The notes below the pieces were generated by a model. That model saw only the letters and a list, made by a program, of their open reading frames with translations. It searched no databases and was not told where the DNA came from. The position numbers and the translations under genes are program-made. From Omnitrophica WOR_2 bacterium RIFCSPHIGHO2_02_FULL_50_17 (lineage in GTDB: Bacteria; Omnitrophota; Gorgyraeia; Zapsychrales; Zapsychraceae), in NCBI GenBank assembly GCA_001805645.1, contig MHGQ01000049.1:66216-130215 (forward strand): a stretch of DNA of 64,000 nt. The letters are read 5' to 3'. Below are positions 4,218-47,664 of this stretch, piece after piece. The stretch's first letter is position 1. Every line of letters begins with the position of its first letter.

Positions 4218-4754
4218 TTATTTTTCGTTATACAAATTCCCATGTTCAATCAGAAGGGTGGCCCTGGCCTCTTCGCGTTCCAGGGCATGTTTGTACGCCG
4301 GGAAGATTTCATCCGGCTCATTGAGTTCAACGACCTCAATCCAGGAAAACATGCGCCGGAAAGCCTCGGCGTAATTGCCTACGTGCTGATGCCCGGGATG
4401 GACAGGCGCATCCGGCCCTGAGGCCGCGCGGATAATGACCTTAGGCAGAACTCGGTTGGAACTGATGGCCGGCATTTTATCCAGCATATTCACCATATCC
4501 GCCGTTGCCAATAAAAGAAAATTCTGCCGAGGGTACACAGATATGGGGATATATCCCGCCAGGGCCAGGCCTAAGGTAAACTGCATCTGAAAGCTTTCGT
4601 TGACAGGCATCTCAACTCTTTTATCGGGGGAGACGTCCTGAAGGGTGGAATACATAAATGTCCCAGGCCCTGCTACGGTCTGGCCGATAAAAATCGTTTT
4701 AGGGTGCTGGGCAACCCATTCCATCGTTCGTTTAATTTCGTCAAAGTATCGCAT
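4218..4754 (-). CDS. Transketolase-like C-terminal subunit (split ThDP enzyme)
   Basis: 178 aa with pyrimidine-binding / C-terminal-half transketolase-like sequence (FIGQTVAGPG..., LLLATADMV). It is adjacent to the N-terminal-subunit gene, as in sugar-cluster split transketolases. Confidence 0.6.
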   Translation of the reverse strand: MRYFDEIKRTMEWVAQHPKTIFIGQTVAGPGTFMYSTLQDVSPDKRVEMPVNESFQMQFTLGLALAGYIPISVYPRQNFLLLATADMVNMLDKMPAISSNRVLPKVIIRAASGPDAPVHPGHQHVGNYAEAFRRMFSWIEVVELNEPDEIFPAYKHALEREEARATLLIEHGNLYNEK

Positions 4755-4775
4755 CGTTTAAGACCATGGTCCCCA

Positions 4776-5408
4776 TCAAAATTTAATTTTCCACCCCAGC
4801 CCCGAGTGAGGATAATTGTTCTTATACCGGAAATAAATAATCTTCTTCTCATATTTTGTCCCGAGAAACCACGGTTCCGGGGAGCCCCAGACCTTCCGCG
4901 TCTCGGTCATCACGCTCAATCCGTTATCGCAGACCACAAACACGACCGGCAGGTCGAAAGAAACGGCGTATTTGACCGCCTCGTGAAAAATTCCGGTCTC
5001 AGAAGACATATCTCCGCAGAAGATATAAACCCGGCCCCTTTGGTTCTGCCTTTGGAGCGCCCAGGCCACACCCACGGCGGTCCCCATGAGACTCCCGACG
5101 ATGCCGGTGCAGAAAATCTTGTATTCCGGAAAACATAAGGAGATACTCTTTCCATCCAAGATAGCCTGCTTGACCTCTTCCCGGGGCACACCCTTGAGAA
5201 GCGCCAGCTCGTGGGAATCCCAATGCCCAAAGACATAATCTTCAGAGGCGATACTGTTGTCTTTGAAGATTTGGATCAGTTGCTCCTCCCTGCCGGAGCG
5301 CAAGTGCACCGGAGCTTTGATGACTCCCGTCGCATAAATCTCAGCGATTTCCTTCTCAAAATCGCAGAGATCTTCTTTAGTTATCTCGCGATATTTTGTT
5401 TGAACCAT
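4776..5408 (-). CDS. Transketolase-like N-terminal (ThDP-binding) subunit
   Basis: HLRSGREEQ..., GHWDSHE... and the GDMSSETG ThDP-binding GDG-like motif. Confidence 0.65.
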
Positions 5409-40757: not shown

Positions 40758-43162
40758 AATTTCTGGACCTTGCCCAAAGGCTGTATCCTTCGCTCAACCT
40801 CCTGATGGCTTCGAATATTGATGAGTTCACCGCCGAGCGTCAGGGCATCCACGGCATTCGTGAAAAAATTCAACATGCCGCCGTTTTTGATAATGTCTTC
40901 CTGAAACATCTGAGAGCATCCCGCCACCAAGAGCTTGCCGGGCCTCGGCGTAAGCGTTGGGGTTTTCTCTGTCTCTTGTTCCACGGACGAATCAACCGTC
41001 TCTGCCCCTTCCTTGGGCCAGGCCGGCATATCCTGCCCCTGAAAGGCATCCGGGAACTGCCCTTCCAATAAAACAGCCAGAGGATACGAACCGTAAGTGC
41101 CATCCGAAGGCTGTTTCACATCATTGGGAGATAAAGGCCCGCCCTTAAAGGGAAGAGACCAGCTTTTTTTACTCGAATTAAACAATATTGTCTTTCTCAG
41201 TTTTAGGTCCTCAAGCTTTTTATTGTCCAGATCAAGTGCGGATCCCCATAAATAGAGAATAGAGGCTAACCGTCCCGTGAGAGAGACATCCTGATTCATA
41301 TTCTCCTGGGTGACTAAAATCTGCATAGGGGCTTTGACAGGCACAGACACCTCAAACGGCCCAAAGGACATGGCCCCCGAGATGGAGATCGTATCGCTCT
41401 GTTCGTCCATAAGCATCTTGTCGCTTAAGGTAACCCCCAAGGGGCGGAGCACGTCGTTGACATTCATATCCTTCTGTTCCGCCGCAATTTCAATTCCCAT
41501 GCGTCCGGACTGCCCGTAACGGTAGCCATATTGCTGAGCGGCGATGATAACATTGCCGCCCTCATGAAGGAAACGGCTGATTTCATACCGCTGGCGGTCA
41601 TTAAGCCTCTCGGGATCCACGACAATAAGCGTATCCACCCCCGCAGGCAGAGGGCTTTCCTTGGTTAGACGGATCCGATACAGCTCATAATCTTCATATT
41701 TCAAGGCCGCATCCAGGATCTTGTATTTGTCATCCACATACTGATCTGGAGCCGTCTGCCCCAATTGGGCCAGAAGCGCCCGCATCTGTGGATCCACGAC
41801 CCTCTGCGTAAAAGGAGCCACCAAGGCCACCTTCGGCGTCTTCTCCAGCGTCATACGATAAATCTTGGAAATCAATTCATATTCAAAATTATTAAGATTT
41901 TGCGGGGTAATGCCGGGGAGGATTTCCTCCTTTTTCTCCTTATAAGCAATGGCGATGGCCGCATAAACCAATTTAATATCCATCTGGTCCTGTTCGATGC
42001 TGCGCACCTGAAAAGGACGGATACCCTTCTGCTGCAACTTGTTCTCCAAGGATTCCTCTTGTCCCTCCTCTTGGGGCTCCTGGGCAACCGCCTCCATGTG
42101 ATAGACATTGTAACGCAGTTTCCCGCCGGAAAAAACTTTAAGCTCATCCAGACGGTCATGGATATCCCGCTCCAGGGATTTCAAAGCGGTCGGCATCTTC
42201 TCCGACGGAGAAATATACAATTTAACCGTAACAGGCGCTTTAAGGGATTTTAAAATCTTTTTCGTCGTTTCTGTCACCGTATACAGTTTCCCTTCCGTAA
42301 GGTCGTAGCGCCCCAGAGGGATATCCGCGAACAAAAAGTTTAAGACCATGCTCAATCCCATACAGACGGCCACGGCCCCCGCAAAGACAATCTTGGCCTT
42401 GGGACGAAGCCGGTCTTCAATCGAAAATATATTCAACACCAGAAACACGCCCGTCATAACAATAAAGTAAAGGCCGTCACGGTTGTCAATCACACCGCGC
42501 TGAAAGCTCTCAAAGTGCCGGGTCATGCCGAAATTCTCTTTCAGGAAAGTCCCCACCCCCGGAAGCCAGCCGTCCATGACGCCCGCCATGAAATCAATCC
42601 CCGCCAGAAAGAAGAAGAAACAGACAATCATGGCCACAATGAAAGAGACAATCTGATCTTTACAAAGGCCGGAGATGAAAATACCGACGCTTAAGAAAAA
42701 CGCCCCCATCAGGACACTGCCGATATACCCTCCGATAATAGGCCCGATGTCGGGGTTGCCCGCCATGGCCAGCATTGCCGGTATCAACAATGTCCCGGCT
42801 AAGGCGATAAGATAAAAAAGAAAACCGGCGCCGAATTTTCCTAGGACCAGCTGATAGGTCTCCATAGGAAAGGTGAGGAGCATTTCAAAAGTGTTTCCCC
42901 TTTTCTCCTCAGCCCACAGCCGCATGGTAATCGCAGGCACAAAGACGCACAGGATAATCGGCATAAAGTAGAAAAACGAGCGCATATCCGCACTGCCGAT
43001 TAAAAAAAACTGAGACATAAAAAGACCTGCGTTGAGAATCACAAAAACCATGATAAAGATGTAGGCAATGGGGGAGTTAAAGTATGAAGACATCTCCCGG
43101 GAAAAAATAGAGCGGCAATGAGCGATATTTTTCATGTCATCTCCCTCCCGGCACGGATTCAA
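40631..43162 (-). CDS. ABC-2 family permease fused to a GldG-like (gliding-motility-associated ABC auxiliary) domain
   Basis: N-terminal ~260 aa with 6 TM helices (ABC-2), then a ~550-aa soluble GldG-like domain, then a C-terminal TM (FMTILAVPCVLIVVGSI). Length is 843 aa. Confidence 0.65.
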   Translation of the reverse strand: MNPCREGDDMKNIAHCRSIFSREMSSYFNSPIAYIFIMVFVILNAGLFMSQFFLIGSADMRSFFYFMPIILCVFVPAITMRLWAEEKRGNTFEMLLTFPMETYQLVLGKFGAGFLFYLIALAGTLLIPAMLAMAGNPDIGPIIGGYIGSVLMGAFFLSVGIFISGLCKDQIVSFIVAMIVCFFFFLAGIDFMAGVMDGWLPGVGTFLKENFGMTRHFESFQRGVIDNRDGLYFIVMTGVFLVLNIFSIEDRLRPKAKIVFAGAVAVCMGLSMVLNFLFADIPLGRYDLTEGKLYTVTETTKKILKSLKAPVTVKLYISPSEKMPTALKSLERDIHDRLDELKVFSGGKLRYNVYHMEAVAQEPQEEGQEESLENKLQQKGIRPFQVRSIEQDQMDIKLVYAAIAIAYKEKKEEILPGITPQNLNNFEYELISKIYRMTLEKTPKVALVAPFTQRVVDPQMRALLAQLGQTAPDQYVDDKYKILDAALKYEDYELYRIRLTKESPLPAGVDTLIVVDPERLNDRQRYEISRFLHEGGNVIIAAQQYGYRYGQSGRMGIEIAAEQKDMNVNDVLRPLGVTLSDKMLMDEQSDTISISGAMSFGPFEVSVPVKAPMQILVTQENMNQDVSLTGRLASILYLWGSALDLDNKKLEDLKLRKTILFNSSKKSWSLPFKGGPLSPNDVKQPSDGTYGSYPLAVLLEGQFPDAFQGQDMPAWPKEGAETVDSSVEQETEKTPTLTPRPGKLLVAGCSQMFQEDIIKNGGMLNFFTNAVDALTLGGELINIRSHQEVERRIQPLGKVQKLWYRFMTILAVPCVLIVVGSIRAIWRRKEKEQYLKLLPAAKL

Positions 43163-44105
43163 CTTTTTTGCGTTTGCTCAACAAGGAAATGAATAAATCC
43201 TCCAAATTGAAACGCCTTTCGGCCAAGGTGCGCACGGGCCATTTTTTTTCTTTATTCAAATTGTCCATCTCCTGAACGATCAAGGGATCCTCGAAGGCGC
43301 TCATGACATCAAATGTGACAAAGCCATCCTTCGATTCGCTGACAAAAGATATGTCTTTGGCGTGCAAAAGGCCTTTGAGAGCCTTCTCAACCGTTTCCTT
43401 AGGTTCTTTTACCGTCAAGGTGTGACAGCGATACCTCATCGCCTCCCGGGCCAATTCCTCTTTGGTCCCCTGCGAGACAATCCTGCCCTCATTAATAATG
43501 ACGATTCTGTCCGCCAGGACTTCCACCTCCTGCAGAATGTGCGTTGAAAAGATAATCGTTTTTTCTTTGGCCAGTTCCTTGACCAGCCGGCGGATGCCGA
43601 TAATCTGCAAAGGGTCAAGACCGCTGGTGGGCTCATCCAGGATAAGAATCTTGGGATCATGAATAAGAGACTGCGCAAGCCCGACGCGCTGGCGGAATCC
43701 CTTCGAGAGCTCATGAATGCCGTGTTTCCAAACGCCTGTAATGCCGCAGGCATCAACCAGCCAATCGAAACGTTTTTGAAGAGCCGATCCCCTTATGCCG
43801 CGGGCGTTGCCGACAAAAGCAAGATATTCATCCACGCGCATATCCATATAAAGAGGCACCGTCTCCGGCATGTAACCTACCAATTCACGCACCCTCAAGG
43901 GCTGTTCCAGGATATCATAACCGCCTAAAACGGCCGTGCCGCGAGTGGGATAAATAAAGGTAGTGAGAATCCGCATCAGGGTGGATTTACCAGCCCCGTT
44001 GGGACCCAAAAGACCTAGAATCTCTCCCTCCTTCACACAGAAAGAGACATCCTCCAAGGCCACGGTAGAGCCGTAATGCATATAAACGTTCTTAATGGTA
44101 ATCAT
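43137..44105 (-). CDS. ABC transporter ATP-binding protein (ABC-2 / GldA-like)
   Basis: Walker A GPNGAGKST, the LSKGFRQRVGLAQSL signature, and Walker B ILILDEPTSGLD. Confidence 0.9.
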   Translation of the reverse strand: MITIKNVYMHYGSTVALEDVSFCVKEGEILGLLGPNGAGKSTLMRILTTFIYPTRGTAVLGGYDILEQPLRVRELVGYMPETVPLYMDMRVDEYLAFVGNARGIRGSALQKRFDWLVDACGITGVWKHGIHELSKGFRQRVGLAQSLIHDPKILILDEPTSGLDPLQIIGIRRLVKELAKEKTIIFSTHILQEVEVLADRIVIINEGRIVSQGTKEELAREAMRYRCHTLTVKEPKETVEKALKGLLHAKDISFVSESKDGFVTFDVMSAFEDPLIVQEMDNLNKEKKWPVRTLAERRFNLEDLFISLLSKRKKVESVPGGR

Positions 44106-44264
44106 AGCCCCTCCTGATTACTGGTCATCAGCATTGATGCTGCCATATTATCATAAAATTTTTTGATGATTCAAGAAAAAATTTAAAAATCAGCATCGGG
44201 CAGCCAAAGAATCCTGTCCTTCCCGGCTGTCCTTAGGACCGTTGGCTCATTTTAAAAAGTATTC

Positions 44265-44294
44265 TTGTCAATTTCCATGGAGCGCAGGTATAAT
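44265..44294 (+). promoter_or_regulatory. Probable sigma-70 promoter for the NSS transporter gene
   Basis: -35 TTGTCA (44265-70), an 18-nt spacer, and -10 TATAAT (44289-94). An RBS GAGGGA precedes the ATG. Confidence 0.55.
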
Positions 44295-44328
44295 ATAAAA
44301 AAATTGAAATCCACAGGACGAGGGATCT

Positions 44329-45924
44329 ATGAATTATCCCAAAGGGGATGGGGTTATGGAGAAAACACATTCTCATCGGCAAAGATGGTCGTCCCGCCTC
44401 GGGATTATCATGGCGGTGGCCGGTTCTGCCGTCGGGCTTGGAAATTTTTTAAGATTCCCGGCCAAGGTGGCGGCCAACGGCGGCGGGGCATTCATGATTC
44501 CCTATTTTATCTCTCTTCTGCTCCTGGGGATTCCCCTTATGTGGATCGAATGGACCCTGGGACGCTACGGCGGCGGCTTTGGCCACGGGACAGCGCCGGG
44601 AATTTTTCACAGCATATGGCAGAAGAACCGTTTCATCAAATACTTCGGCGTCATCGGCATCTTTGGACCTCTGGTCATTTTCATTTACTACACCTACATC
44701 GAATCCTGGACTCTCGCGTACAGTTTTTTTGCGCTCGCCGGAAAATACAGCGGCTTAAGCGCCCAGGCCGATATGAAAAATTTTTTAAGCGGCTACCAAG
44801 GGCTTGAACAAAACCAACATTTTAGCAGTCTAGGCCCTGCGTATATATTCTTTCTCATAACATTCCTTCTCAATGCTATTATTATTTACAAAGGTATCAA
44901 AGGAGGGATCGAACGTTTTTGTAAATGGGCCATGCCGGCCTTATTTTTCTGCGCCCTTATCCTTTTCGTGCGGGTCCTCACCTTAGGTGCCCCTGATCCG
45001 GCCAAACCCGACTGGAACATCATCAATGGCCTCGGCTTTGTCTGGAATCCCGATTGGACAGCGCTCAAATCCGCCCGCGTCTGGCTGGAGGCCGCCGGCC
45101 AGATTTTCTTTACCCTAAGCGTTGGGATCGGCGTCATCCTCACTTATGCCAGCTATCTCTCTAAAGGTGATGACATTGTGCTTTCCGGAACGACCGCAAC
45201 CAGCGTCAATGAATTTGCCGAGGTTATCTTAGGGGGAAGCGTCATCCTGCCGGCCGCATTTGTCTTTTTCGGTCCTGTGGACATTCAAAACATTGCCCAA
45301 TCTGGTCTTTTTAACTTAGGATTTGTCACTATGCCGCTTGTCCTGAAGCAAATGCCTTTATCCAGTCTCATGGGATTCGCCTGGTTTTTCCTGCTTTTTC
45401 TGGCAGGCATCACCTCATCCGTTTCCCTCGCGCAGCCGGCGGTTGCTTTTCTCGAGGATGAATTCAACATCAAACGCGGCCGGGCGGTTCTCATCTTTGG
45501 GGCAGTCGCTTTTATCTTATGCCATCCGGCCATATTTTTCCTCAAAAACGGCGTCGTGGATGAGCTTGATTTCTGGGGAGGAACGCTCTGCCTGGTTGTC
45601 TTCGCCACCGTCGAGGTAATCCTTTTCTCCTGGGTGTTCGGCATGGAGAATGCCTGGAGTGAGGTCCATCACGGCGCGGACATGGAAGTCCCTAAAATTT
45701 ACAAATTCATCATCAAATACATCACGCCCCTTTTTCTTATCACGATTCTGGGCGCCTGGCTCTACCAGGACTGGCTTAAAGTAATTTTTATGGAAGGCGT
45801 CCCTCCCGAAAACAGGATATACATCCTGGCAACACGCTTAACACTTCTTATCATGTTCATCGTTTTAGCGGTACTCGTCAGGCACGCCTGGAGGCGTAAA
45901 TACAGAGAAGAGGTGAGGCCATGA
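44329..45924 (+). CDS. Sodium-dependent transporter, NSS (neurotransmitter:sodium symporter) family
   Basis: The AVGLGNFLRFP motif and about 12 TM helices. The alternative start MEKTHSH lies 9 codons in. Confidence 0.9.
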   Translation: MNYPKGDGVMEKTHSHRQRWSSRLGIIMAVAGSAVGLGNFLRFPAKVAANGGGAFMIPYFISLLLLGIPLMWIEWTLGRYGGGFGHGTAPGIFHSIWQKNRFIKYFGVIGIFGPLVIFIYYTYIESWTLAYSFFALAGKYSGLSAQADMKNFLSGYQGLEQNQHFSSLGPAYIFFLITFLLNAIIIYKGIKGGIERFCKWAMPALFFCALILFVRVLTLGAPDPAKPDWNIINGLGFVWNPDWTALKSARVWLEAAGQIFFTLSVGIGVILTYASYLSKGDDIVLSGTTATSVNEFAEVILGGSVILPAAFVFFGPVDIQNIAQSGLFNLGFVTMPLVLKQMPLSSLMGFAWFFLLFLAGITSSVSLAQPAVAFLEDEFNIKRGRAVLIFGAVAFILCHPAIFFLKNGVVDELDFWGGTLCLVVFATVEVILFSWVFGMENAWSEVHHGADMEVPKIYKFIIKYITPLFLITILGAWLYQDWLKVIFMEGVPPENRIYILATRLTLLIMFIVLAVLVRHAWRRKYREEVRP

Positions 45925-46022
45925 CACTCGGGGGGTGGATATTTCTTGTCATTTCGTGGGGATTTATTATAGGGATGACTGTTTTCTGCTTCATCCGCGT
46001 TTTTTCTAAAAAAACAGTTTAG
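45921..46022 (+). CDS. Small hydrophobic ORF (33 aa) overlapping the NSS stop codon; candidate MetS-like NSS small subunit
   Basis: ATGA overlap at 45921-45924. Translation is MTLGGWIFLVISWGFIIGMTVFCFIRVFSKKTV, a single TM with a basic C-terminus. It is below the size cutoff of the ORF track. Confidence 0.45.
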   Translation: MTLGGWIFLVISWGFIIGMTVFCFIRVFSKKTV

Positions 46023-46081
46023 ACTTCCAGCGAAAAAGCAGAATCAAGGGAAAAACAAACAACCGGCAAAGGCGCTCTCTG

Positions 46082-46498
46082 CTAATGGCGTTCTAATTCG
46101 GTCCTGATAATCATCATTATTTCCAAATTATTATTGGAAATAATTACGCTGCGGTTAATCTCAGCGCTTTCATCAACGCTCCCATAGACAAGAGCCAAAT
46201 CCACACCAGCCTCGGCAATCTTGTCGGTGACCCGCTGAAGGGCCCCCGGCTGGTTATCAATAGAAAGCAGGATGACTTCTTCCTCCTGGATATCATACCC
46301 TTTGGCCTCCAGGAGTCTTTTGGCCTCATTATTATCGTCGGTCACAAACATAACGGCAACATTATTCTCGATAGAATAAGCGCACAGGGCAACCAAATTG
46401 ATATTGGCCTGGGAAATCACGCGCGTTATCTTGGCCAGCATGCCGATTTCATTGTCACCGCGCACCATCAATTGTCTAGCGAGCTCTGCCTTGACCAT
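46082..46498 (-). CDS. ACT domain-containing protein (tandem ACT)
   Basis: Two ~65-aa ACT-like repeats (GMLAKITRVIS...; PGALQRVTDKIA...). Confidence 0.65.
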   Translation of the reverse strand: MVKAELARQLMVRGDNEIGMLAKITRVISQANINLVALCAYSIENNVAVMFVTDDNNEAKRLLEAKGYDIQEEEVILLSIDNQPGALQRVTDKIAEAGVDLALVYGSVDESAEINRSVIISNNNLEIMMIIRTELERH

Positions 46499-46731: not shown

Positions 46732-47664
46732 TCAATCAAAGCCCTTCTCCACCAAATATTCTTCAATAATCTCTTTATGATCAAAGGCATACTCCAGCTC
46801 CAACAAATCCTCATAACGGACGATTCTTAAATCCCCGGCATCATCGCCGGCTCTCGGCTCTCCCTCCCCCTCCGCAACAAAAACCGTAGAGACGGTATGA
46901 AAACGGGGATCGCGGTCCGGATGAGAATAAGTATGAAACTGCCTTAAGTCAACAAGCTCCAAATTTGTTTCTTCTTTAGCCTCACGGATAGCCGCCTCTT
47001 CCAGGCTCTCCCCGTAATCAACAAATCCGCCGGGCAGGGCCAGCCCATAAGGCGGACTCGAGCGCTCGATGAGGACAATGCCGCCCTGGCATTCAATAAT
47101 AATATCCACCGTCACGTAAGGGCCCGATTGCTCCGCCATATGCCGGACATAACCGCGGATAGTCTTGTCCGATATATCAAAAGTCTCTTCGTCGTATAAA
47201 CAAAAAATAATCTTGCGTAATGTTGCCTGAGGATTCCTGCTCTCCTTCATAATCTCTTGAACCGCGATCTTAGCCGCTCCCTCCATTGGGAGCCCTCCCT
47301 CATCACCGCCTAAGGGCGCAAGGCCTAAAGAATTTAGTTTAAGTTCATTGGCGCACTTAAGGGCGCTGGCGACGGCCTTTCGGACATCCCCCTCGCCGCA
47401 AAAAACGTCATTCCTCCTCGCAGCGGCATGGATAACATATTGAGCCGGCAGACCGCCGGCCTTCGTCCAGACCGCCTCACCCGGCGGGATAGGCCCCTTG
47501 CTGACGGCCTCCTCTTCGATCTCGGCCCCGCCTTCTTTTTTAATAAATTCCGCCACGCCTTTATCCATCCTGAGCGTAGAAGAGGCGGTATACACAATTG
47601 CCTCTACCTTAAGCCGCGTGATGTCAGCTTTGACTACCTCAATCTCGATATCCCTGATTTTCAT
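46732..47664 (-). CDS. Macro domain (ADP-ribose binding / processing) fused to a NUDIX hydrolase
   Basis: N-terminal macro domain (KADITRLKVEAIVYTAS...IHAAAR). C-terminal NUDIX box GGFVDYGESLEEAAIREAKEETN. Confidence 0.75.
   Translation of the reverse strand: MKIRDIEIEVVKADITRLKVEAIVYTASSTLRMDKGVAEFIKKEGGAEIEEEAVSKGPIPPGEAVWTKAGGLPAQYVIHAAARRNDVFCGEGDVRKAVASALKCANELKLNSLGLAPLGGDEGGLPMEGAAKIAVQEIMKESRNPQATLRKIIFCLYDEETFDISDKTIRGYVRHMAEQSGPYVTVDIIIECQGGIVLIERSSPPYGLALPGGFVDYGESLEEAAIREAKEETNLELVDLRQFHTYSHPDRDPRFHTVSTVFVAEGEGEPRAGDDAGDLRIVRYEDLLELEYAFDHKEIIEEYLVEKGFD

What the first reader, a model, noticed from the sequence alone, without database searches (positions are those of the whole stretch)
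45921..46022. Unannotated 33-aa membrane micro-ORF translationally coupled to the NSS transporter
ATG at 45921 overlaps the transporter stop (ATGA). It encodes MTLGGWIFLVISWGFIIGMTVFCFIRVFSKKTV, one TM helix with a KK-rich tail. Small subunits of NSS-family amino-acid importers (MetS-type) have this shape and genomic position. The ORF is absent from the supplied track (under 60 aa).
Basis: partly seen in the sequence, partly recalled or inferred. Interest (0 to 1): 0.5.

Follow-up and report, generated by a model that had tools for sequence, protein, structure and literature searches.

The report
Hidden small partner of LeuT-type transporters
A real, conserved 33-residue single-helix membrane protein is encoded in overlap with the stop codon of a LeuT-type sodium/amino-acid transporter; it belongs to a widespread, unnamed family that current MetS models do not detect and that is absent next to Aquifex LeuT-type genes.

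Summary
ATG 45921 overlaps the TGA (45922-45924) of a 531-aa NSS transporter and opens a 33-codon ORF. The ORF is a real gene. It is complete in 73 of the 80 closest orthologous loci, and 52 of the 74 copies (window included) have the ATGA overlap. Its frame is under purifying selection (pN/pS 0.40, against about 1.0-1.3 in the other frames). An SD-like motif precedes it in 62 of 74 copies. Conservation lies on one face of a predicted helix. 137 cluster representatives exist in public protein sets, all unnamed or "hypothetical". Four of five distant members sampled, on contigs with different flanking genes, also sit directly after an SNF gene; the fifth contig was too short to tell. It has the shape and position of MetS, but none of 74 members matches the curated MetS models, and profile-profile similarity is marginal. 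The partner transporter is in the LeuT clade, not the MetS-linked clade. Five sampled Aquificota loci, including three at 88% identity to LeuT, lack the ORF. The most likely role is a laterally bound accessory subunit of the transporter. Binding and function are untested.

The parts
44265..44294 (+). sigma-70-like promoter candidate (TTGTCA-18-TATAAT, 11/12) about 35 nt upstream of the transporter start
   Evidence: This is a consensus match only. The upstream neighbour is on the minus strand, so a promoter is expected in this gap.
44329..45924 (+). LeuT-clade NSS (SNF) Na+-dependent transporter, 531 aa
   Evidence: PF00209 E 4e-55 and NF037979. It aligns end to end with LeuT PDB 2a65 (E 8e-146, residues 16-527 against 4-511). 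It is 47% identical to an Aquifex LeuT-type protein and groups with the LeuT clade.
45910..45918 (+). Shine-Dalgarno-like GAGGTGAGG inside the 3' end of the transporter gene, serving the micro-ORF
   Evidence: An SD-like 4-mer lies at -18..-4 in 62 of 74 family copies, against 15% at random positions inside the same transporter genes.
45921..46022 (+). 33-aa micro-ORF: single-pass membrane protein, putative accessory subunit of the transporter
   Evidence: It is the only hit of the family HMM in the whole window (E 4.9e-22).
45936..45995 (+). codons 6-25: hydrophobic transmembrane core, with conserved residues at 5, 9, 12, 16, 19, 23 and 26 spaced as along one helical face, plus Trp6, Trp13 and Phe24
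   Evidence: Conservation profile with a periodicity peak at 100 degrees; 39 of 5000 permutations reach it.

Best explanation
The ORF is a genuine gene for a 33-residue, single-pass membrane protein, predicted to have its N-terminus outside and its basic C-terminus in the cytoplasm. It is transcribed with the LeuT-type NSS transporter as a two-gene unit and translated by coupling (ATGA overlap plus its own Shine-Dalgarno). Most likely it packs laterally, through one conserved helix face, against the transporter as an accessory subunit that aids assembly or stability or tunes activity. This is the role MetS is reported to play in the two-subunit NSS importer MetPS. Shown here: coding constraint, initiation signals, strict and phylogenetically broad linkage to LeuT-clade NSS genes, and one-sided helix conservation. 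Inferred: physical binding to the transporter, topology, and any effect on transport. The partner is probably modulatory rather than indispensable, because some lineages lack it next to the gene, including Aquificota, the phylum of the LeuT reference protein.
For: (1) The frame is conserved. It is complete in 73/80 closest orthologous loci, one further copy is cut by a contig end, and two are decayed remnants.
(2) Selection acts on this frame. pS is 0.78, pN is 0.32 and the ratio is 0.40, against 0.99 and 1.32 in the shifted frames. Third-position entropy is 1.58 against 0.67 at second positions.
(3) Coupling signals are conserved. 52/74 copies have the ATGA overlap and 62/74 have an SD-like motif, against a 15% background.
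(4) Linkage holds across different neighbourhoods and lineages. Distant members P0133, P0144, P0256 and P0221 each lie directly after a gene, overlapping it by 4 nt or starting 2 nt after it. That gene is an SNF gene for the first three and an end-truncated, unannotated gene for P0221. LeuT-clade loci L106-L108 (L108 is Dadabacteria) also carry the ORF. The 80 loci include MAGs labelled Auribacterota, FCPU426 and Planctomycetales.
(5) In the window the pair stands alone between a divergent and a convergent gene.
(6) Conservation has alpha-helical periodicity, with G5, S12, I16, L19 and C23 invariant or nearly so, as expected for a helix-helix interface.
(7) K+R counts are 0.4 in the N flank and 3.95 in the C flank, with more in the C flank in 204/209 sequences.
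(8) AlphaFold2 predicts a single helix, pLDDT 89.7.
(9) There is precedent. MetPS is described as a two-subunit NSS importer (PMC3219685, citing Trotschel et al. 2008). Annotated MetS genes occupy the same position.
Against: There is no direct evidence here of translation, membrane insertion or binding. Purified Aquifex LeuT works without any partner (established knowledge). The five sampled Aquificota loci have no family member within 2-2.5 kb. Four of 80 close orthologues lack it entirely. No natural transporter-small ORF fusion was found among 240 homologues. No cluster of transporter residues distinguishes partner-bearing sequences from Aquificota sequences. In 30/80 loci a lipoprotein gene is coupled downstream, so the small protein could serve that protein too.
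Confidence: 0.68

Rival explanations
1. It is a true but highly divergent member of the MetS family, sharing common ancestry with the methionine/alanine importer small subunit, and does the same job for a different NSS clade.
For: It has the same size, topology and gene position as verified MetS genes. hhalign gives an ungapped end-to-end alignment with probability 41% and score 18.3, above the shuffled mean of 10.4 +/- 3.0. Both families have a mid-helix W-G and a basic C-terminal flank.
Against: 0/74 members reach any MetS model at E<=10. Local cross-HMM scores are at most 14 bits, below the 25-bit cutoff of NF033493. 5/200 shuffles equal the real hhalign score. The conserved Trp is offset by four residues, and the invariant G5 and C23 have no MetS counterpart. 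The partner transporters form separate clades.
Confidence: 0.3
2. The small protein works mainly with something other than the transporter. It could anchor or partner the DUF3568-like lipoprotein encoded after it in many relatives, or act as a general small membrane regulator. On this view its linkage to the NSS gene reflects only operon history.
For: In 30 of 80 loci a lipoprotein gene follows at once, often with its ATG overlapping the small ORF's stop.
Against: The lipoprotein is absent from the window. It is also absent from the called genes of the distant loci L085, L089, L091, L094 and L106-L108, where the NSS gene is always present. L022 and L032 keep the lipoprotein without the small ORF.
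Confidence: 0.08
3. The ORF is not an independent gene. It is either a chance or spacer ORF that only supports ribosome traffic, or a C-terminal extension added to the transporter by programmed frameshifting as a 13th helix.
For: The ATGA overlap places it in another frame of the same mRNA, and no peptide evidence exists.
Against: Amino-acid-level constraint and invariant residues argue against a spacer. The ORF has its own start codon and SD-like motif. Its position varies from -55 to +171 nt relative to the transporter stop, including intergenic gaps, which does not fit a fixed frameshift site. No fused forms were found.
Confidence: 0.03

Closest known systems
MetS, small subunit of the NSS methionine/alanine importer MetPS (NCBIfam NF033493/NF033494; Pfam PF16951)
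   Same: It is a 30-50 aa protein with one TM helix, a short N-terminus and a basic C-terminal flank. It is encoded directly after an NSS (PF00209) gene, overlapping or within a few nt of it. The complex is described as a two-subunit NSS transporter (PMC3219685).
   Different: No curated MetS model matches (0/74). The conserved residues differ: G5, W6, S12-W13, I16, L19 and C23-F24 here, against S-A-I..MMV..VWGGL in MetS. The partner is a LeuT-clade transporter rather than the MetS-linked clade. Homology is unresolved.
LeuT of Aquifex aeolicus (PDB 2a65 and many others), the structural reference for NSS/SLC6
   Same: The window's transporter aligns with LeuT over its whole length (E 8e-146) and belongs to the same clade.
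   Different: LeuT has been studied as a stand-alone protein. Aquifex-type loci (88% identical) and two other Aquificota loci have no such micro-ORF nearby. Their sister lineages L106-L108 do have it.
Single-helix small subunits and regulators of bacterial transporters (AcrZ-AcrB, MgtS, MgtR/MgtU; KdpF from own knowledge)
   Same: These are proteins under 50 aa with one TM helix that bind a large transporter in the membrane and change its stability or activity (review PMC10710835).
   Different: Those proteins are unrelated in sequence and act on RND, P-type ATPase or PiT transporters. None is reported for LeuT-type NSS. Several are encoded apart from their target, whereas this one is translationally coupled to it.
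Collectrin/ACE2 single-pass partners of eukaryotic SLC6 amino-acid transporters such as B0AT1 (own knowledge, not tested here)
   Same: A single TM helix from an accessory protein packs against an NSS/SLC6 amino-acid transporter.
   Different: These are large eukaryotic type I proteins with ectodomains. There is no sequence relation, so this is an analogy only.

Membership tests
MetS family NSS transporter small subunit (NF033493 / NF033494 / PF16951) | Scores above the curated cutoff of the family HMMs | tested here: not met
   The window peptide has no hit at E<=10. 0 of 74 family members hit any of the three models. The positive control, Priestia MetS, scores 54.9 bits (cutoff 25) on NF033493 and 29.5 bits on PF16951.
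MetS family NSS transporter small subunit (NF033493 / NF033494 / PF16951) | Small protein with one transmembrane helix and a basic cytoplasmic tail | tested here: met
   33 aa. AlphaFold2 predicts a helix at residues 3-31. The core is hydrophobic, and K+R is 0.4 in the N flank against 3.95 in the C flank.
MetS family NSS transporter small subunit (NF033493 / NF033494 / PF16951) | Encoded immediately downstream of, and co-oriented with, an NSS (PF00209) transporter gene | tested here: met
   ATGA overlap in the window. The same arrangement occurs in 73/80 relatives and in distant members.
MetS family NSS transporter small subunit (NF033493 / NF033494 / PF16951) | Detectable remote homology to MetS by profile-profile comparison | tested here: inconclusive
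   hhalign probability 41%, score 18.3; 5/200 column shuffles score at least as high. Cross-HMM scores are at most 14 bits. The MetS alignment held only 9 sequences from 4 genera.
MetS family NSS transporter small subunit (NF033493 / NF033494 / PF16951) | Partner transporter belongs to the MetP-type clade | tested here: not met
   In a neighbour-joining tree of 14 NSS proteins the MetS-linked transporters (Priestia, Acinetobacter, Peptoclostridium) form their own clade. The window's transporter sits with LeuT-type proteins and is 28-32% identical to the MetS-linked ones.
MetS family NSS transporter small subunit (NF033493 / NF033494 / PF16951) | Needed for methionine/alanine uptake by its partner | not testable with these tools
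   This requires genetics and uptake assays.
LeuT-type NSS transporter (for the upstream gene) | PF00209 domain and full-length similarity to LeuT | tested here: met
   PF00209 E 4e-55. LeuT chains E ~1e-146 over residues 16-527 against 4-511. 47% identity to an Aquifex LeuT-type protein.
LeuT-type NSS transporter (for the upstream gene) | Na+-coupled transport of small hydrophobic amino acids | not testable with these tools
   Substrate and ion coupling were not examined.

The most novel reading that the evidence does not exclude
Single-helix partner proteins may be the ancestral and normal state of LeuT-clade bacterial NSS transporters, and possibly of NSS transporters more widely if this family and MetS share an origin. 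The Aquificota lineage that supplied LeuT would then be a secondary loss. In that case the reference structural model of the SLC6 family represents a transporter stripped of a subunit that, in most relatives, shapes stability, oligomeric state or kinetics.
Probability: 0.3. Interest if true: 0.65.

Novelty: new variant of a known kind. Interest (0 to 1): 0.5.

Why it matters
Small subunits of NSS transporters are known from one system, MetPS, and annotation pipelines recognise only that sequence family. This finding defines a second, sequence-distinct family. It has at least 137 clusters at 50% identity and spans Omnitrophota, contigs labelled Planctomycetales or carrying Planctomycetes-type neighbour genes, Dadabacteria, Auribacterota and others. 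It is tied to the LeuT clade, whose Aquifex member underlies much of the mechanistic picture of SLC6 neurotransmitter transporters. If the peptide binds and modulates the transporter, it offers a simple natural system for studying how a single helix tunes a LeuT-fold protein. It would also justify a new annotation model for a gene that callers miss inconsistently. It was not called in L106, L108 or L110, the last being the public contig that carries the identical transporter.

Tried and rejected
2. A homologous-protein search with the Acinetobacter MetS returned almost only Acinetobacter sequences. The MetS alignment therefore stayed shallow and the homology test weak.
3. Literature searches for MetS or NSS small subunits were mostly noise. 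The primary MetPS paper (PMID 18991398) is not held.
4. A Rosetta-stone search for transporter-small ORF fusions in 240 homologues found none.
5. Transporter residues that separate partner-bearing sequences from Aquificota sequences were sought to locate a docking site. Only 4 scattered positions appeared.
6. A PDB profile search with the family found nothing.
7. Chance ORF, frameshift extension and a lipoprotein-only partner were considered and set aside, for the reasons given under rivals.
8. A complex prediction was not attempted, because the structure tool takes single chains from the window only and returns no contact or PAE data.

Full report
**Observation**

The sequence reads ...GAGGTGAGGCCATGACACTC.... 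ATG 45921-45923 shares its TG with the TGA stop (45922-45924) of a 531-aa ORF at 44329..45924.

The upstream ORF is an SNF/NSS transporter (PF00209, E 4e-55; NF037979). The neighbour upstream of the pair (43137..44105) is on the minus strand, and so is the neighbour downstream (46082..46498, an ACT-domain protein). The transporter and the micro-ORF therefore form an isolated two-gene unit. A promoter-like TTGTCA-18-TATAAT lies at 44265-44294 (a consensus match only).

**Is it a gene?**

The transporter's nearest relatives are from Candidatus Omnitrophota (75-85% identity). A scan of one genome per species confirmed 581 relatives, and the best 80 loci were kept.

- **Frame conservation.** In 73 of the 80 loci a 30-35 aa ORF of the form M-x-x-x-G-W-I-F-L-x-x-S-W-G-x-I-L-x-L-x-x-F-C-F-x-K-V-F-S-K-K follows the transporter.
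- **Overlap and start codons.** Of the 74 copies (window included), 52 start with the same ATGA overlap. The rest start from -55 to +171 nt relative to the stop. Start codons are ATG in 68, GTG in 4 and TTG in 2.
- **The seven loci without a complete copy.** L080 holds the beginning of the ORF, cut by the contig end. L020 and L065 hold decayed copies. L022, L032, L069 and L078 have none.
- **Codon statistics.** Entropy by codon position is 0.98 / 0.67 / 1.58. Mean pairwise pS is 0.78 and pN is 0.32, a ratio of 0.40. The two shifted frames give ratios of 0.99 and 1.32 and carry stops in 73/74 and 33/74 sequences.
- **Initiation signal.** An SD-like tetramer lies at -18..-4 in 62/74 copies, against 15% at random positions inside the same transporter genes.

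**What the protein looks like**

- **Conserved residues.** M1, G5 and C23 are invariant. S12, W13, I16, L19 and F24 are conserved at 90% or more.
- **One conserved face.** Over 209 family sequences the conservation profile has its strongest periodicity at 100 degrees per residue. Only 39 of 5000 permutations reach that power. The most conserved positions (5, 9, 12, 16, 19, 23, 26) follow a 4-3-4-3 spacing, as expected along one face of a helix. That pattern is expected for a helix that packs against another protein.
- **Charge distribution.** The N-terminal flank carries 0.4 K+R on average and the C-terminal flank 3.95. The C flank has more in 204 of 209 sequences. By the positive-inside rule this predicts N-out, C-in, which is an inference.
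- **Structure prediction.** AlphaFold2 on the single sequence gives one helix, residues 3-31, mean pLDDT 89.7.

**How wide is the family?**

A full HMMER pass of the 33-aa peptide over 1.84 billion cluster representatives found 137 with E<=0.001. All but one are 30-85 aa long, with the same core and variable, often charged, tails. The exception is a 227-aa repetitive protein that was excluded as a probable false positive.

The nine clusters looked up carry no name or "hypothetical protein", apart from two evidently mis-assigned names. The window's exact peptide is not in the collection.

Five distant members were traced to contigs.

- P0133 lies on a 251-kb contig with Planctomycetes-type neighbour genes, directly after an SNF gene with a 4-nt overlap.
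- P0144 is followed by an argininosuccinate-lyase-type gene. It lies directly after an SNF gene with a 4-nt overlap.
- P0256 is followed by a DUF3078 gene. It starts 2 nt after an SNF gene.
- P0221 overlaps by 4 nt a gene truncated by the contig end and carrying no Pfam annotation.
- The fifth contig was too short to tell.

The neighbouring genes differ in every case, so the conserved unit is the pair.

Gene callers are inconsistent. The ORF is called in L107 but not in L106 or L108. It is also not called in L110, the public contig carrying the identical transporter and an identical copy of the ORF.

**The partner is a LeuT-type transporter**

Against PDB sequences the transporter aligns end to end with LeuT of Aquifex aeolicus (2a65 and about 25 other LeuT sequences, E ~1e-146, residues 16-527 against 4-511). 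BLASTP identity to an Aquifex LeuT-type protein is 47%.

A neighbour-joining tree of 14 NSS proteins (rough) shows these groups.

- **A LeuT clade.** It holds the window's transporter, L091, L089, L107, L108 and the two Aquificota proteins.
- **A sister branch.** Acetoanaerobium sits next to that clade.
- **A MetS-linked clade.** It holds the Priestia, Acinetobacter and Peptoclostridium transporters.
- **A clade of ~450-aa transporters with no small ORF.**

Loci were then sampled from the LeuT side.

- **With the micro-ORF.** L106, L107 and L108 (L108 is Dadabacteria) are 61-65% identical to Aquificota LeuT-type proteins. They carry it at or overlapping the stop: MELNALILMTISWGFSLGLLTFCVVKL..., MELDALIFMVCAWGATLGLLSFCVITL... 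and MEISALIFLILSWGSAIGLLGFCLSKFHS.
- **Without it.** Three Aquifex-type loci at 88% identity to LeuT have an SppA-type gene overlapping the transporter stop. An Aquificae locus (L109) and a 622-aa Aquificota variant (L111) also lack it. The family HMM finds nothing within 2-2.5 kb in any of the five.

In the rough tree Aquificota is nested among partner-bearing lineages, so loss or relocation in Aquificota is the simpler reading. This is an inference. The VF5 genome itself could not be fetched.

A Clostridia transporter at 34% identity (Acetoanaerobium, L085) is followed by MTGAALGFLVITWGIVFSVVGISLKAILDSEKKKK. It shares the FLVI[ST]WG block and scores 17.4 bits on the family HMM. This is a possible outlying member.

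**Relation to MetS**

Annotated MetS genes were recovered from PLSDB records.

| Source | Length | Sequence | Position relative to the NSS gene |
|---|---|---|---|
| Priestia | 38 aa | MDGSSITMMVVGMVIIWGGLAASIAHAVKKAKESKASG | 1-nt overlap |
| Peptoclostridium | 36 aa | MAGSAVLMMVIGCGAVWGGAVIAIIIALRADKKAYK | 2-nt gap |
| Acinetobacter | 47 aa | MNTSAIVMLIISMVFVWGGLALSILHLTKHPEELDEVLEEVKDQHTL | 12-nt gap |

Family membership does not.

- **Curated models.** The Priestia control scores 54.9 bits on NF033493 and 29.5 bits on PF16951. The window peptide, all 74 aligned members and the Acetoanaerobium peptide give no hit to any MetS model, even at E<=10.
- **Profile-profile comparison.** hhalign between the family (209 sequences) and a shallow MetS alignment (9 sequences) gives an ungapped 29-column alignment, probability 41%, score 18.3. 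Column-shuffled MetS alignments average 10.4 +/- 3.0, and 5 of 200 reach the real score.
- **Cross-HMM scores.** Local cross-HMM scores are at most 14 bits.

I treat common ancestry as open (about 0.3) and file the protein as MetS-like in architecture and context, not as a MetS family member.

**How it most likely works**

Transcription probably starts from a promoter in the 44106-44328 gap (candidate only). The ribosome finishing the transporter either re-initiates at the overlapping ATG or is recruited by the embedded SD. The two proteins are then made in the same place and in linked amounts (inferred from the conserved signals).

The peptide would insert N-out, C-in and pack its conserved face (G5, L9, S12, I16, L19, C23, with W6, W13 and F24 alongside) against lipid-facing helices of the transporter. 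That would make it an accessory subunit. MetS is the direct precedent: MetPS is described as a two-subunit NSS importer (PMC3219685, citing Trotschel et al. 2008). AcrZ, MgtS and MgtR/MgtU show how such helices stabilise or tune transporters (PMC10710835).

LeuT itself is active alone (established knowledge), and a few lineages lack the ORF. I therefore expect modulation or stabilisation rather than an obligatory catalytic role. Binding, topology and effect are all untested.

**Rivals**

- **Divergent true MetS homologue (0.3).**
- **Partner of the DUF3568-like lipoprotein (0.08).** That gene follows the small ORF in 30/80 loci. The lipoprotein is absent from the window and from all distant loci, while the NSS gene is always there. 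L022 and L032 keep the lipoprotein without the small ORF.
- **Chance or spacer ORF, or frameshift extension (0.03).** This is contradicted by amino-acid constraint, the ORF's own start and SD, variable spacing and the absence of fusions.

**Novelty and verdict**

The kind is known: a single-helix small subunit of an NSS transporter. The sequence family, its link to the LeuT clade and its breadth are not captured by Pfam, NCBIfam or the PDB. The text searches I could run found no report of it.

I rate it a new variant of a known kind, with interest 0.5. It is a solid, testable small-protein family attached to a much-studied transporter clade. It has no functional evidence yet and a clear conceptual precedent.

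Noticed in passing
L008 ~4660-5035 and 29 other loci of L001-L080; absent from the window: In 30 of 80 orthologous loci a ~125-150 aa lipoprotein gene (MKK...GC..GGAVGALGGYAVSKDT...) follows the micro-ORF, often with its ATG overlapping the micro-ORF's stop (AAAATGA). Its Pfam match to DUF3568 is weak (18.6 bits, below cutoff). This gives a three-gene coupled unit. L022 and L032 keep the lipoprotein directly after the transporter without the micro-ORF.
   Followed up: partly
P0454-P0507 (606-622 aa) and locus L111 2001-3869: A subgroup of LeuT-clade transporters, including one labelled Aquificota, carries an insertion of about 107 residues. It lies between positions equivalent to LeuT ~222 and ~223, after TM5 and before TM6. 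Both termini are normal. No micro-ORF lies nearby.
   Followed up: partly
window 46082-46498 (-): A 138-aa protein made of ACT domains (amino-acid-binding regulatory fold) converges on the amino-acid transporter operon. A hairpin at 46066-46082 lies between the two units. Whether the adjacency has meaning was not examined. The same neighbour is present in L110.
   Followed up: no
window 46732-47664 (-): A 310-aa protein whose identical copy on L110 carries Macro (PF01661) plus NUDIX (PF00293) domains.
   Followed up: no
L085 3114-3221 (Acetoanaerobium noterae NZ_CP154629.1): An unannotated 35-aa ORF, MTGAALGFLVITWGIVFSVVGISLKAILDSEKKKK, lies 14 nt after a 527-aa NSS gene in a Clostridia genome. 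It is a possible outlying member of the same small-protein family (17.4 bits). The 2.6-Mb record is filed as a plasmid in PLSDB and has only 4 annotated features.
   Followed up: partly
L002 and L004 (closest relatives, 84-85% transporter identity); also L075: In these loci the micro-ORF sits 149-171 nt downstream of the transporter stop instead of overlapping it, so extra sequence intervenes between the two genes.
   Followed up: no
micro-ORF region of L006, L008, L031, L070, L072 and others: The reading frame of the downstream lipoprotein stays open backwards through the whole micro-ORF. ORF finders therefore list 150-180 aa 'extended' lipoprotein ORFs that overlap the micro-ORF. Across the 74 copies this alternative frame lacks a stop in 41. 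The likely cause is a codon-composition effect that could mislead gene callers.
   Followed up: partly
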